DNA of 64,000 nt from Diadema antillarum (lineage: Eukaryota), in NCBI RefSeq assembly GCF_040938485.1, contig NW_027271853.1, forward strand, positions 186,001 to 250,000, in the 5' to 3' direction. Every line of letters starts with the position of its first letter. Position 1 is the stretch's first letter. This document shows, piece by piece, positions 25,834 to 63,200 of the stretch. Position numbers: made by a program.

Positions 25834-28800
25834 TGTGACGGAGGAATGACTGCTCGCAGACGTTGCAGTATGTTCACTAATAGCCTTTTATTCTCCCGAG
25901 CTTTCGACCGAGTTACCAGTCTTTTTCAAGGGCTTGGGACGTAAACACAAAAGCAGAAAAGCAACCAGTTTGCATACATTTGAACAGAATAAGGCAAAAA
26001 CAAGAAAGAGAAAAGAATATCAAAAGAAAATCAAACGGAACATAGACTGCATGCATGACATTCACTACAACGAAGCGGCAATATTATCACATACACTGGC
26101 AGTGAAAATAATGGAACAGTAGTAGCAGTATAGTATAAGCAATAACAGCGGTAATTATTGCAATGAAATCATTCGAAATACATGTACATAGACCAACATA
26201 GGTTAAAACACTCTGGTTACGTTTTAAGGCGTTGGGGTATGCCTGGTGTGTGTGGTGTCAGTGGGATGAGTTTGAGGGGTTCGCAAACGTAATGTGGGGG
26301 TAGTAAAGTGTGAGGGGTGTGACTGGGAGCAGTCATTCCTTCGTCACACCTACACATAAGATAATGTAGCACCCACAACGCACGAGGCCATGCCCGCATA
26401 ATAGTCATCTACTTGAGTTTGACATGGAAAAAAAAATAGTAACCATTTTGATATCAATCTGCTGAAGAACCACTTTAAATTCCACAAATCTATACATGGC
26501 ACTACAAATTTATGCACTTCATGATGTGAAATTATGAAAATCGTTTCGTTTCCTCCTGTAAAACTGGACATGCACTTAGCGCCGTTTATCAAATAGTGTC
26601 TTCTTTGGTTTGCGCATGCGCATCTTGCTACATGACTTTTAAGTCTACATCTATTTTTTTATTTTAATTTTAATTTTCAAACATTTATAGTTCAATTTAT
26701 TTTGCTTTGTTGTTAAACTTAGGCAAGGCGTATTAGTCTGGTGAACAGTATCAGCTGAACGTTCTCTACTACACACATGTTTCTTATCTCATTCGTTATT
26801 GCGTCAAATTTTGAATTGATCAGTTTTATTGCTATCTTTGTTCATATCGGTTTATACTCGTTTTATAGAGCCATGCCATGGTCATTGATAGCTTTGCATA
26901 TTTTACAACTTACACATATTTAGATATTGTCGTATCATCACTTTCCAAGCAATAAGTCTTGCTTTATGATATCATAATCCATGCATCTTCTCTCGTGCAA
27001 GCAATCGCTGAGTTATCTTAAAAGAAAAGTCCATCTAAAATGGTGAGCTAAAGCAAACATATTATGATCAATTTTACCCATTGAACAAGCTATGTTCGAC
27101 GAACAAAATGTTACTTCGAGTTCACCACATCAAAGGCAGCAATTTTCGAATCGTCCCCTTTCCTTCGTTAAGTAATGAAATGTAGCTTATCCAAAGACAT
27201 TGTTCGAATAATAATCTAGTTTGAAGCATGTTTATTAAACGCATGTGACCTTCTTATCATTTTGTTTACCAGGTTTTGTTCTGAGTTTTGCGCTTTTTGT
27301 GATTAATAACGTCCTCGTTTATGAGTGCAAATGGACGTTTTTCCCGAGCAGTTGAAACACAGCTCATGGTTTAAAATAGAAACGATCTTACCGTACTAGC
27401 CTATTAACGTTACTGAGGAACTTTTGCAAACACGACGCTACCGCCAGTTGAGGGTGCCAAGTGCAAAATTTGCTTCTGCGCATGCTCAAATCCGAAAAAG
27501 CTCCTGTCCTGGGGAAAACGAGAAAGGTTTTCGGCCAAAATAGCATGTCAGTGGTCCGGTCCCGATGCGAAACTGCTATAACATCGGCTAAGAAATGGGG
27601 ATGGGAGTCCGAGTGTGGGGACCATAACAGCTGATTGCTTCCGCGTCCTTTCGGTCTTCCCGTCGTGAAGCGAAATTTTATTATTGTCGTCATTAAATCC
27701 GCAATTTTCGTTTTCTATCGCACTGTTCAGTATAAGCTAGGAGTTATCATCGTAACTCTTTGGAACAAGCGTATTAATTCGCGTAGGCCTATTGTGCAGA
27801 CATGGAATCACTGAACACACTTGTAGACTATCTAAGTTGGTAAAATATTGTTCCACGATATTGATATTGTGTTTATCATCGTATTTGTCATTATCTTACC
27901 CTTGAATTGTTCTGTCAGTTAGCTAAATATAATGGATGCCTTCAGTCATAAAATTAAGGCTATAAGACTTCTTCTGAGATCATTGAAAGCCTCTCGAAAC
28001 AAACGATCCCTGTAGCCGTAGATGAGCGGATTGACGGCCGAATTTATGCCCAGACTGATGATGTTGACATGGGCAAGAACGGATGATAGACTATAATCGT
28101 TCAATGGCGATAATTCGATACCGAACGAAATTTGGGTAGGCAGAAAACAGACAATAAAGATAAAGACTATAATGCAGATTGTTTGGGTCCCTTTCAAGTT
28201 CTTGATCGATATCTCATGGTTTCCCCGATTTCTCCCGAAATCTTCGTTTCCCTGGTAGATCATGCGGGACTGTTTGAAAGCGATTCGGAGTATCCGCATA
28301 TTGAAACCAGTCAACATGAAGAACACCAGCGAGCTGCCTGCAAGCACGCTCAGATTGACGGCCCACAATAAGGGATCCTCAAAGTATCCCGTGGGGCACT
28401 TCATAGTTATCACATTGGCATTTTTGGACACGAGCAAATAAGATCGTGTTAAAAAGAAAGCGCTGCATGCCATCCAGGTGAAGACTATCACAATCCGGAC
28501 GCGTTCGATGGTCACCGTAGAGACGTAGTGCAGTGGTCTTGTAATGGCAATATACCTGTCGGTCGTGATTGTGAATATTTGGAAAAAAGATACAGCGCTG
28601 AGGACAGTGAATGGCGTTGCAAATGATATTGTAGAAGAAGAATCACAACGGGTATTTTTTGAGAAGTTGAAATACATATATAAAGGAATACCGATAAAAC
28701 CGGTGAAGAAATCGGCAACAGCAAGACTTGCAATGATGAGGATGTTGGTGTCCGCAGATGATGGTACTTGTAAACTGCACATACCACCAAGCCGTTTCCA

Positions 28801-60200: not shown

Positions 60201-63200
60201 TGCGATCTCTGCGAGAGGACTTGCATAAATGCTGAAGAATGACGGGCCCAAAACAGATCCTTGGGGGACTCCATACAGAAGTTCAGCGGAGGATGACATG
60301 CACTCATTGATCCTGACTACCTACGAATGGTTACACAAATAAGAAGATATCCATGCAAGAGCAGATCCTTTCACACCTATTGAACGAAACCTTGTGATAA
60401 GAATATCCTTGTCAATGGTGTCGAAAGCTGCTGACATATCAAGGAGCACCAAGAAAACCGCTTGCTTCTTGTCAAGTGCTTGACGTATATCATTATGGAC
60501 TTTTATCAGGGCAGATTCGGTGCTATGATGCCTTTTATAAGCAGATTGAAGTGGTTCACTTAAATCATTCAGTTCTAAATATTCTTGAAGACTATGGGCT
60601 TCGACTCTTTCCAAAACTTTCGAAATAAACTTGAGATTGCAACTGATTGACAATCAGTTGCAATGAAAACATCTCGACGGAAGAAATTAATGAATTTGGA
60701 AAAACTTGAGATTGCACACTGGTCTGTAGCTATTGAGGGTGTCGGGGTCTAAACCGTGCTTCTTCAGCAGAGGTCGAACGACAGCTTGTTAGATAAAAAG
60801 ATCTTTTAATAGTAAAGATAAAAACTATAATACAGATGGTTTGGGTCCCTTTAGAATTACAAGTATCTCGTGGGAACTTCATAGTTATCACAGTCAGTGT
60901 ATTGATCTAACGGCGGAATCCAGTCATAAAATCAAGGCTGTAAGGCGTCTTCTGAGATCACTTAATTTCTCGCGAAACAGACGATCCCTGTAGCCGTAGA
61001 TGAGCGGATTGACAGCCGAGCTTACTTCTAAATGCCAAAACTGATGAGGGCGATTTGGGCAAGAACGGGTTGATGATACTCGCTCACTAATCCTAAACCC
61101 ACGTGTATTTGCGAGAGGACACAGCACATCACGTAGATGAAAACGACTATGGAGATTGTTTGGGCCGCTTTGAAATTCTTAATCAACAATTCACGGTTCT
61201 CTCGATCCCTTCCGAAGGCTTCGTTTGCCTGAAATATCACTCGGGACTGTTTGAAAGCAATATGTAATATACGGACATTGATAGCCACCACGGTGAGAAG
61301 AGCAATGCTAAGGTTTATTAGCGTGCCCAGATGCAGGGCCCGCAGAAAGGGGTCCTGAAAGTATCTTCCGGGGCACTTAATAGTAATCATCGCAGAGATT
61401 TTGGAAACATGCAGGAAGTAGTGATATGTTAGAAAATAAGCACCAAGTAATATCCATGAGAATACAATCACAACTTGAACTCGCCTAGTAGTCACTAAGG
61501 TGACGTAGCGCAGTGGTCTGGTAACGGCTATATACCGGTCTACCGAGACGATGGTTATATGAAAAAGAGAGACAGAGGCGACCGACATTAAGGGTGCAGC
61601 AAATACAAGCTCTTCGAAGGAGTCACAACGCGTAGTCCTTGAGAGGTTGAAATAAAGATAGAGAGGAATACCGACAAGTCCAGTGAAAAAATCGGCCACA
61701 GAAAGACTTGCAATGATGAAATATGTTGGTGTCCACAAACGATGGTATCTGTAAACTGCAAATACCACCAAGCCGTTTCCAACAACGCTACAAGCTACCA
61801 CTGGTATCAAACAAGTCAAGAGCAAAGCAGTGTTCAGCGGGGTAATTGCCGTAATGTCGACTGGGCTTGTATGTACTGAATCCATCATGATATCTTCAAA
61901 CGTTCAAATGTGCACGACTTCTGTAGCGAACCTATCCACAAGATCAAGAGATCCAATGGTCGAGTGAACTAAAAGGAATGTCCATATGGCGCAACTGGTA
62001 TCATAGATTAACCGCTCACTTTTTCTCTTTATTAACCTCGGTTCATGTGCGCAAAACTCTCCTTACAGTAATGAATACGATTTAATTGGTTGTCGGCGCT
62101 TATCTTTGAAGTGGAAAAGTAATTTCTTAGTTACGAGGGATGCTGTGTGATTTTAGCAACTTCAATCAACAAACTGCTTCAGCGTGTCACTCATGTTCTC
62201 CCATCTTAATATTCTGATGTCAATCACCTGACTGTAGGTTAATGCTCACATCAGATTTATAACTAACACATGCTAAATTTAAATCAGTTTTCTCGTTAGT
62301 TACAATTCCATTTACATGTCCTGGGAAAAGTTGCTTCACGAACACTATCCACCTTCTTAAGGATTATGTAAAAAAGTGGAACGGGGAAGTGGAATGCATT
62401 GACGAAATATATGAGTGTAAACTACTTGCGAATTCCAAGTTTCGATGATAAAAAGCAATTTCAAGAAAATTTTGCCGCTGGTAAACGCGCTTTTCAAAGA
62501 AGAGAGACTTAGGAGCATTATGCTCTTCTTTTTTATTTGGCTCTTCAGAGCGATTAAAATGAGATTTTGAAAGGTGTAAGCACCAATGAATAATATAAAG
62601 TCCCGTCTTTACAGACCCGGGTGTTCGGCGGCGAAGATTTACCCAATCTTATGTAAGTAAAAACAGCCCCTAATTGGATATTGATACACGGGGCTTAATG
62701 TATTGGCCTCGTGGGCCTTGTTTGCTTAGTGTCGAACTCATGGGCTGTAATTCACGGGCTGTATGATTCGTGGGCTGTATGACTTGTGGGTGCACTGCAA
62801 AAAGGCCGGTGTTAAATATGAAACACCGAGCTCGTGTTAAATTTCCGGTGCTCATTCATGGTGTTAGATTAACACCTCCGGATGTCATTTCAAAATTCAA
62901 AATTGTTTTTTTGTTGTTGAATAGTTTCTTAGTTACTGCGCTTCTTGTTAATTTTGAACTTCCACAAGACGATAAAGAATTTTCCGATAAAGTACTTGAT
63001 TAAAAAAACAAACACACTGTAAATACATTTACACCACAGTAACATCAGTTGGTGTGGTCCCCTATTGAAGCTGGACGGGTGTTATACCATTGAAATTGAC
63101 ACCACCAATATCAAATCAACACCATGCGGTGTCACTATTGAATTAGCTCTAGTGCAGCGTCAAAAATATCACCAGCCACAGTATCAAATTAACACCACGA

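What the first reader, a model, noticed from the sequence alone, without database searches (positions are those of the whole stretch)
27946..60892. All three type B receptors are dead, each by a different lesion
Seen: unit 1 has a 1-bp deletion at 28741/28742 (not in a homopolymer). Unit 2 has a 10-bp insertion at 45768-45777 and lacks the unit-1 deletion. Unit 3 has an L2 insertion in TM6 plus deletions. The first two copies are otherwise nearly identical, so both losses are recent and independent, while five of six A and C copies remain intact. Type B is also the most divergent in sequence (KGTQT, CFLP). Inference: parallel loss after relaxed selection, or selection against this receptor.
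[Added by the scan's program, not by the reader: the finding's places include an assembly gap (unread letters, written N; its length is only estimated) at 35876 to 36003, 41230 to 41362. Whether the letters on both sides are continuous or in frame is not known: test that first.]
Basis: partly seen in the sequence, partly recalled or inferred. Interest (0 to 1): 0.65.

Follow-up and report, generated by a model that had tools for sequence, protein, structure and literature searches.

The report
Broken receptor copies, intact copy elsewhere
In this sea-urchin (Diadema) cluster of candidate smell-type receptor genes all three copies of one receptor type are broken as described, but a whole, 99% identical copy is annotated elsewhere in the same species, so this looks like ordinary gene turnover and not the loss of a receptor.

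Summary
The window is not human. It holds 12 single-exon class A GPCR genes on the minus strand. Their nearest named proteins are RefSeq models of the sea urchins Diadema antillarum and D. setosum.

The lesions are real in the sequence:
- B1 lacks one base at 28741/28742.
- B2 carries 10 extra bases at about 45768-45782.
- B3 is an old relic. Its 5' 60% is deleted, 187 bp are missing inside, a 1.67-kb LINE sits in TM6, and there is a +2 frameshift.
- C3 is broken by an 8-bp insertion.
- No N run touches a receptor gene.

B1 and B2 lie in a roughly 7.8-kb tract that is 97-100% identical between cassettes. Neither lesion is shared, so both are young and independent.

XP_071511031.1 (D. antillarum, 321 aa, whole) matches B1 at 318 of 320 comparable residues and reads through B1's break. 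It sits on another contig of an assembly published as keeping both haplotypes. Type B is therefore not lost, and B1's lesion is most likely a segregating null allele.

dN/dS for B1-B2 (0.45) equals that of intact paralogue pairs, so relaxed selection is not shown. This is ordinary birth-and-death turnover.

The parts
27946..28910 (-). B1: type B receptor gene, single exon, broken by a 1-base deletion between 28742 and 28741 (codon 57, start of TM2). ATG at 28910-28908, stop at 27948-27946.
   Evidence: Pfam 7tm_1 E 4.3e-24 for 27949-28740. 318 of 320 comparable residues identical to P0001.
45197..46172 (-). B2: type B receptor gene, broken by a 10-base insertion (any placement within 45768-45782) just after the DRY region, at the TM3/ICL2 border. 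ATG at 46172-46170, stop at 45199-45197.
   Evidence: Pfam 7tm_1 E 2.6e-16 for 45786-46172. 7 residue differences from P0001, including M at the family-invariant V141.
60813..60892 (-). B3 relic, upstream pieces. 60861-60892 is the ECL2 piece (VITMKFP) and 60813-60852 is the start of TM6 (KGTQTICIIVFIF). They are joined by 8 filler bases where 187 bp are missing. Directly upstream lies the 3' flank of C3, so about 1974 bp (the B-C spacer plus B TM1-TM4) are deleted.
59146..60812 (-). 5'-truncated non-LTR retrotransposon (LINE) inserted in TM6 of B3. It has reverse-transcriptase pieces with YADD, several frame breaks and no poly-A tail. About 18 bp of imperfectly duplicated TM6 sequence lie on both sides.
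   Evidence: RVT_1 E 2.7e-09 and 1.6e-12 for 2 of the 4 pieces scanned.. Single copy in the window. Full-length relatives carry APE-type endonuclease domains, and a 95% identical copy exists elsewhere in D. antillarum.
58926..59145 (-). B3 relic, downstream piece: end of TM6 through to the stop codon, with 2 extra bases near 59075 that shift the frame.
   Evidence: 86.5% DNA identity to B1 over 260 bp.
60924..61885 (-). C3: type C receptor gene, broken by an 8-base insertion at about 61026-61033 in TM7 that brings an in-frame stop.
   Evidence: Residues 1-148 are identical to RefSeq model P0004.
21122..22081 (-). A1: intact type A receptor (319 aa).
30422..31375 (-). C1: intact type C receptor (317 aa).
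37131..38093 (-). A2: intact type A receptor (320 aa).
47681..48634 (-). C2: intact type C receptor (317 aa). 310 of 317 residues identical to D. setosum XP_072174688.1.
51365..52324 (-). A3: intact type A receptor (319 aa).
22950..30750 (.). Unit-1 side of a roughly 7.8-kb tract that is 97-100% identical to about 38950-48020 in unit 2. It holds B1/B2, both spacers and the 3' third of C. The A genes and the 5' two-thirds of C outside it are only 84-95% identical.

Best explanation
**What the window is.** It is part of a Diadema-specific, tandemly repeated cluster of single-exon class A GPCR genes. These are probably chemoreceptors, of the kind called rapidly expanded lineages in sea urchins. 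The cluster evolves by duplication, gene conversion and decay.

**History of the B copies.**
- An A-B-C cassette was triplicated.
- B3 died long ago and has since collected a 5' deletion, an internal deletion, a LINE insertion and a frameshift.
- B1 and B2 were made nearly identical by a recent conversion or re-duplication of about 7.8 kb.
- Each then acquired its own single frameshift.

**Type B is not lost.** A whole gene 99% identical to B1 is annotated in D. antillarum on another contig that also carries near-identical A1-like and A2-like genes. The annotated assembly keeps both haplotypes, so that contig is most likely the other haplotype. B1's deletion would then be a null allele segregating beside an intact one. 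Much less likely, it is a polishing error.

**What is shown and what is inferred.**
- Shown: the lesions, the mosaic identity, and the intact protein.
- Inferred: that the other contig is allelic, the chemosensory role, and the order of events.
For: - **Gene map and family.**: 7tm_1 E 1e-16 to 1e-30 for 4 of 4 receptor pieces scanned.
- **Lesions.**
- **Identity profile.** About 22,950-30,750 is 97-100% identical to unit 2. The A genes are 84-95% and the 5' part of C 91-94% identical. Unit 3 is 66-80% identical.
- **Intact B.** P0001 is the top hit of 124 and is XP_071511031.1, on a 901,065-bp contig. It matches B1 at 56/56 and 262/264 residues, and B2 at 129/132 and 188/192. At the 9 residues where B1 and B2 differ it agrees with B1 at 7 and with B2 at 2. 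It groups with B1 on a zero-length branch.
- **Other genes on that contig.** It carries an A1-like model (140/141 and 57/60 identical) and an A2-like model (190/198).
- **Publication.** PMC13511894 (abstract, sections 2.5 and 3, data statement, passages) says the RefSeq-annotated assembly is 1.75 Gb against a 703-Mb haploid estimate. It reports 84.4% duplicated BUSCO genes 'indicating retention of both haplotypes', heterozygosity of 2.52% and QV 44.5.
- **Lineage restriction.** In the profile search, 9 of 84 listed proteins are 50% or more identical to P0001 and all 9 are Diadema. The next is Lytechinus at 39%.
Against: - The DNA of the 901-kb contig could not be read here, so allele, fourth paralogue and a different assembly cannot be told apart.
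- Two models on that contig have no match of 85% or more in the window: P0002, 70% B-like, and P0008. The two regions are therefore not simply collinear, or these genes lie outside the 64 kb.
- P0001 is a computed model with no expression evidence seen here.
- The window's own origin is not settled. P0004 (878-kb contig) matches C3 exactly over 148 residues, but its last 227 residues have no match above 73% in the window. The paper also says that assembly has no gaps, while the window has four N runs.
- No B2-like intact protein and no D. setosum B orthologue turned up. This would fit wider decay of B, although annotation of this family is visibly poor: 5 of 8 Diadema models are mis-spliced or chimeric.
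- dN/dS and indel tests have little power with 15 substitutions.
Confidence: 0.68

Rival explanations
1. One reading: type B is being lost in parallel in all cassettes, because selection on it relaxed or turned against it. The three dead copies would be a fixed or nearly fixed state of the species.
For: - Three of three B copies in the window are dead against one of six A and C copies.
- The B coding sequence diverges between B1 and B2 about as fast as its non-coding flanks: 1.56% against 1.96%, Fisher P 0.45. Indels: 2 events against 3.7 expected.
- B2 carries M at a family-invariant V.
- No B orthologue appears among D. setosum proteins.
Against: - An intact, fully conserved B protein exists in D. 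antillarum.
- dN/dS of 0.45 equals that of intact paralogue pairs.
- There are no extra stops in B1 or B2.
- The type-specific pattern has a chance probability of 0.14.
- B1 and B2 are not independent samples of regulation, because they share a very recent ancestor.
Confidence: 0.12
2. The intact B protein comes from a separate, paralogous cluster and not from the other haplotype. The cluster in this window would then have lost all its B genes for good, while the function is kept at another locus.
For: - The 901-kb contig carries models (P0002, P0008) with no close match in the window.
- Its A2-like model is only 96% identical (190/198), less than the A1-like and B models.
- The paper itself says residual allelic redundancy and recent paralogy cannot be told apart locus by locus (passage from section 4.6).
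Against: - 84.4% of BUSCO genes are duplicated in that assembly through retained haplotypes, so a near-identical second copy is by default allelic.
- 99% protein identity for A1 and B fits 2.52% heterozygosity.
Confidence: 0.2
3. The 1-base deletion in B1 is an assembly or polishing error, and B1 is whole in the animal. The 10-base insertion in B2 and the wreck of B3 are real.
For: - The published assembly was polished with short reads (Racon) while both haplotypes and 98% identical paralogues were present. Modal HiFi depth was about 11x. This matters only if the window comes from that assembly.
- An otherwise 99% identical intact sequence exists.
Against: - QV 44.5 means about one error per 28 kb, so an error in a given 963-bp gene is expected about 3% of the time.
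- The deletion is not in a homopolymer.
- B1 also differs from P0001 by two amino acids, so it is a distinct sequence and not a miscopy.
Confidence: 0.08

Closest known systems
Sea-urchin 'surreal-GPCRs' (rapidly expanded lineages of rhodopsin-type GPCRs, described for Strongylocentrotus purpuratus) and the OR-like expansions of starfish and sea cucumbers. Known to me here from passages of PMC5442662 and PMC7042368; the original 2006 paper was not read.
   Same: - Echinoderm, rhodopsin-type, single-exon genes in tandem arrays.
- Expansion restricted to a lineage: 50% or more identity only within Diadema.
   Different: - Placement in any named S. purpuratus group (A-F) was not tested.
- No S. 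purpuratus protein appeared.
- Expression in tube feet or pedicellariae is unknown for these genes.
Vertebrate olfactory-receptor and TAAR gene clusters evolving by birth and death, with segregating pseudogenes (textbook knowledge, recalled; no paper read for it).
   Same: - Tandem single-exon class A GPCR genes.
- A mix of intact genes, young frameshift pseudogenes and old relics carrying transposon insertions.
- Gene conversion between neighbours.
- Null and intact versions of one gene co-existing in a species.
   Different: - Unrelated expansion: best vertebrate hits are only 25-30% identical.
- The ligand-binding hallmark of TAARs, Asp3.32, is absent; P0001 has F101 there.
Adenosine A2A/A2B receptors and zebrafish TAAR13, the closest solved structures and the source of the RefSeq names.
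   Same: - Best PDB matches: profile E 6.8e-31 to A2A, and single sequence E 2.1e-23 to TAAR13e.
- DRY, NPxxY and the TM3-ECL2 cysteines are kept.
   Different: - About 25-30% identity.
- The residue five places after the TM6 proline is F263, not the Asn that binds adenine in adenosine receptors. That role is recalled; the position was counted.
- The names 'adenosine receptor A2a-like' are similarity labels only.

Membership tests
Rhodopsin-like (class A) GPCR, Pfam PF00001 | Match to the 7tm_1 profile above its curated cut-off (30.5 bits) | tested here: met
   A2 103.2 bits, C1 105.9, B1 C-part 85.8, B2 N-part 60.4.
Rhodopsin-like (class A) GPCR, Pfam PF00001 | Seven membrane-spanning helices | tested here: met
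   Seven hydrophobic stretches in P0001. The AlphaFold2 model shows seven long helices plus a short eighth, but its mean pLDDT of 38.5 is too low to count.
Rhodopsin-like (class A) GPCR, Pfam PF00001 | DRY at the end of TM3, NPxxY in TM7, and a cysteine pair between TM3 and ECL2 | tested here: met
   D118 and R119 are invariant and Y120 nearly invariant (R1 has F). N294, P295 and Y298 are invariant, C172 invariant and C89 nearly invariant, in 11 sequences including the intact B protein.
Sea-urchin rapidly expanded GPCR lineages (surreal-GPCRs) | Single-exon genes in tandem clusters, expanded within an echinoid lineage | tested here: met
   12 uninterrupted or once-broken reading frames on one strand in 64 kb. 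The 9 of 84 listed proteins that are 50% or more identical are all Diadema.
Sea-urchin rapidly expanded GPCR lineages (surreal-GPCRs) | Phylogenetic placement inside a named S. purpuratus group (A-F) | not tested
   No S. purpuratus sequences were retrieved. The group lists are in supplements, which are closed.
Sea-urchin rapidly expanded GPCR lineages (surreal-GPCRs) | Expression in tube feet, pedicellariae or other exposed tissue | not testable with these tools
   No expression data were available here.
Adenosine receptors (the RefSeq name) | Asn at position 6.55 contacting the adenine ring (feature recalled) | tested here: not met
   Five residues after the TM6 proline (P258), P0001 has F263. 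The A, C and R types have M, V or L there.
Aminergic receptors and TAARs | Asp at position 3.32 in TM3 binding the amine (feature recalled) | tested here: not met
   In the alignment to TAAR13e, the receptor's Asp 18 residues before the Arg of DRH pairs with F101 of P0001.
   RVT_1 in 2 of 4 pieces. Imperfect duplication of about 18 bp of TM6 sequence at both ends. Relatives carry APE endonuclease plus RT.
   No reference LINE sequences with clade names were available, and the names are generic. A C-terminal motif (AAPSLWNALP ... FKKLLK) resembles what I recall from L2-type elements. That is a lead only.

The most novel reading that the evidence does not exclude
One haplotype of this sea urchin has lost every copy of receptor type B by separate hits, while the other haplotype of the same animal keeps a working copy. 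On that reading this is a presence/absence polymorphism for a chemoreceptor, maintained or driven by selection, with type-specific loss favoured in some environments. It would not be mere drift.
Probability: 0.08. Interest if true: 0.45.

Novelty: new member of a known kind. Interest (0 to 1): 0.2.

Why it matters
The finding shows little beyond what is expected of a fast-evolving receptor cluster.

- **Caution for gene-family counts.** In the uncollapsed D. antillarum reference, broken and whole versions of one receptor sit on different contigs. RefSeq models of these single-exon genes are often mis-spliced. Counts of expansion, loss and pseudogenes taken from one contig or from the annotation will therefore mislead.
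- **A possible marker.** If the B1 null and intact versions are alleles, they give a ready-made natural knockout for asking what this receptor type senses. D. antillarum is a keystone species of conservation concern.

Tried and rejected
- **False tandem duplication.** I considered that units 1 and 2 are two haplotypes wrongly placed in tandem across the N run at 35876-36003. Rejected for three reasons. C2 has a D. setosum orthologue at 97.8% while C1 is 87.7% to it. A1 and A2 differ at dS 0.26. The other contig carries both an A1-like and an A2-like model.
- **Simple unequal crossover as the origin of unit 2.** It fits A2~A3 with B2~B1, but not the C-A spacers, which are only 74-91% identical. 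A later conversion tract is needed.
- **Structure prediction of the intact B protein with the 11-sequence alignment.** Mean pLDDT was 38.5 and pTM 0.29, too poor to use, so no fold search was run.
- **Search for further B relics.** None was found outside the three loci at E below 1e-3. In 58800-61030 only the listed pieces appear.
- **Order of XP accession numbers on the 901-kb contig.** It hints that the intact B may sit next to the A2-like gene, which is the B2 position, although its sequence is B1-like. Accession order is not a map, so I draw nothing from it.
- **LINE clade.** The last protein search returned only generic names.
- **** failed on a reference containing stop codons. The coordinates were corrected.
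- **No spliced model was built or joined.** The genes are single exons, and the broken genes went to database searches only as single contiguous stretches. Read-through versions with N at each break were used only in local scripts.
- **Left unchecked.** Reads, the DNA of the other Diadema contigs, the phased assemblies, the closed collections (metagenome and viral contigs) and all paper supplements.

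
Full report
**What the window is.** It is not human. It has about 37% G+C and carries twelve reading frames of about 320 codons, all on the minus strand. They match Pfam 7tm_1 (E 2.6e-16 to 3.3e-30 for the four pieces scanned). 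In window order on the minus strand the genes are C3, B3, A3, C2, B2, A2, C1, B1, A1, R3, R2, R1. The nearest named proteins are RefSeq models of the sea urchins Diadema antillarum and D. setosum. In a profile search, 9 of 84 listed proteins are 50% or more identical to the B protein, and all 9 are Diadema. The next is Lytechinus at 39%.

**The N runs, tested first.** Four runs exist. The two inside the finding lie in the C1-A2 and A2-B2 spacers, more than 1 kb from any reading frame.
- The flanks of the first are collinear with the paralogous C-A spacer, and the implied length is close to the N run.
- The second sits at a stretch present only in unit 2. A2 and B2 on either side keep the order and strand of A1 and B1.
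- No lesion depends on a gap, and I filled nothing.

Over 1163 aligned columns, B1 and B2 differ by 20 substitutions, one 1-base gap and one 10-base gap.
- B1 lacks a base between 28742 and 28741, in a CAT-CC context.
- B2 has ten extra bases that can be placed anywhere from 45768-45777 to 45773-45782.
- Each copy reads normally at the other's lesion, and neither has another stop.
Its 5' 60% and the B-C spacer are gone, 187 bp inside are replaced by 8, a 1667-bp LINE with reverse-transcriptase pieces sits in TM6 between imperfect duplicates of the target, and two extra bases shift the tail.
- C3 is broken by an 8-base insertion. The other five A and C genes are whole.
- I could not test whether the LINE is of the L2 clade. 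Its relatives are endonuclease-plus-RT elements with generic names.

**History of the copies.** Identity between units 1 and 2 is a mosaic. It is 97-100% from about 22,950 to 30,750, but 84-95% across the A genes and 91-94% across the 5' part of C. Unit 3 is 66-80% identical to either. A2 is closest to A3 (dS 0.06), while B2 is closest to B1 (dS 0.03). C2 has a 97.8% identical D. setosum orthologue, to which C1 is only 87.7% identical. So the cassettes are old, and a tract of about 7.8 kb holding B was homogenised recently, most simply by gene conversion. Both frameshifts came after that event and are independent.

The best database hit to B1 is a whole 321-residue protein, XP_071511031.1 of D. 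antillarum, with no low-quality label.
- It is identical to B1 at 56 of 56 residues before the break and 262 of 264 after it, and it has Tyr at the broken codon.
- It keeps all invariant family residues, including DRY, NPxxY and both cysteines.
- It joins B1 on a zero-length branch.
- It lies on a 901,065-bp contig that also bears an A1-like model (140/141 and 57/60 identical) and an A2-like model (190/198).
- The paper on this genome (PMC13511894: abstract, sections 2.5 and 3, data statement and term passages read) states that the RefSeq-annotated assembly is 1.75 Gb against a 703-Mb haploid estimate. It reports 84.4% duplicated BUSCO genes from retained haplotypes, 2.52% heterozygosity and QV 44.5. 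The earlier preprint gives the same figures (passages).
- The simplest reading is that the intact gene is the other haplotype's B1. B1's deletion is then a null allele beside a working one.

**What speaks against that reading.**
- I could not read the other contig's DNA, so a fourth paralogue or a different assembly remains possible.
- Two models on that contig have no close match in the window.
- The window's own origin is unsettled. One model from an 878-kb contig matches C3 exactly over 148 residues, but its last 227 residues find nothing above 73% in the window. The paper reports no gaps, while the window has N runs.
- No intact B2-like protein and no D. setosum B orthologue were found. 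However, annotation of this family is poor: none of six intact window proteins looked up is in the protein collection, and five of eight Diadema models are mis-spliced or chimeric.

**Selection.**
- B1-B2 has 9 non-synonymous and 6 synonymous changes, dN/dS 0.45. Intact A pairs give 0.41-0.49 and C pairs 0.36-0.71.
- Neutrality is not rejected (P 0.115), and B does not differ from the intact pairs (Fisher P 1.0 and 0.54).
- Non-coding flanks in the tract have 113 substitutions and 22 indel events in 5766 bp. The B coding sequence has 15 and 2 in 962 bp, with 3.7 indels expected.
- The data cannot separate 'recently hit' from 'drifting since the conversion'.
- The chance that all three copies of some one type fall among four dead genes of nine is 0.14.
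- B is the earliest branch among the window's types, with P0002 as its sister. Its stem (0.24) matches that of C (0.23).
- KGTQT and CFLP are subtype marks shared by the intact protein.

**What the receptor is like.** The closest solved structures are adenosine A2A/A2B receptors and zebrafish TAAR13 (E 6.8e-31 for the profile, 2.1e-23 for the single sequence). B lacks Asp3.32, having F101 instead. It also lacks an Asn five residues after the TM6 proline, having F263. The adenosine and amine names are therefore labels of similarity. The gene organisation matches what passages of PMC5442662 and PMC7042368 describe for echinoderm expanded receptor lineages. Membership of a named group and expression were not tested. 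A structure model was too poor to use (pLDDT 38.5).

**In print.** Three searches turned up no account of this cluster: 15 papers, 10 listed; 4 papers; 7 papers. For most of those papers I saw only the listing, so this is weak evidence. Supplements were closed and might list receptor genes or pseudogenes.

**Verdict.** The lesions are real and independent. The broad claim that type B is dead is not supported. The pattern is ordinary birth-and-death turnover, with a probable segregating null allele.

Noticed in passing
41411-41485 (-), 41738-41812 (-), 42598-42672 (-), 42790-42864 (+); also 2565-2639 (-): Four identical tRNA-Thr(AGT) sequences lie in a stretch of about 2 kb present only in unit 2, next to the N run in the A2-B2 spacer. 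A fifth, different tRNA-Thr(AGT) lies near the window's start. Whether they are working tRNA genes or heads of tRNA-derived repeats was not tested.
   Followed up: partly
22950-30750 and about 38950-48020: A tract of about 7.8 kb is 97-100% identical between cassettes 1 and 2, and it ends inside the C genes. The flanking A genes and the 5' part of C are much older (dS up to 0.26). A2 is closest to A3 but B2 is closest to B1, so gene histories within a single cassette disagree, as gene conversion would produce.
   Followed up: yes
60924-61885: C3, the one dead gene outside type B, is broken by an 8-base insertion at about 61026-61033 that brings a stop in TM7. Like B2's lesion, it is a short insertion partly echoing neighbouring bases.
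   Followed up: partly
20901-20948, 37042-37097, 51216-51260; also 17690-17812: An (AT)n microsatellite sits just downstream of the stop codon of each A gene, and a longer one lies beside the N run at 17844-17983.
   Followed up: no
RefSeq models P0004-P0008 compared with 5571-61903: Public gene models for this family are often wrong. They put introns into single-exon genes, skipping the middle of the receptor. One model (P0004) splices the front of C3 to the tail of the B3 relic and on to a distant GPCR. None of six intact receptor proteins of the window that were looked up is in the protein collection.
   Followed up: partly
5571-16654: The three further intact receptors R1, R2 and R3 group as A-like (R1, R3) and C-like (R2) in the tree. 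No B relic lies between them at E below 1e-3, so an older cassette may never have had B, or may have lost it without trace.
   Followed up: no
59146-60812: The LINE in B3 has a 95% identical reverse-transcriptase copy on another D. antillarum contig (P0183), and thousands of relatives in public data (4577 at E up to 1e-8 among 5064 candidates). The family was therefore active fairly recently in this genome.
   Followed up: no
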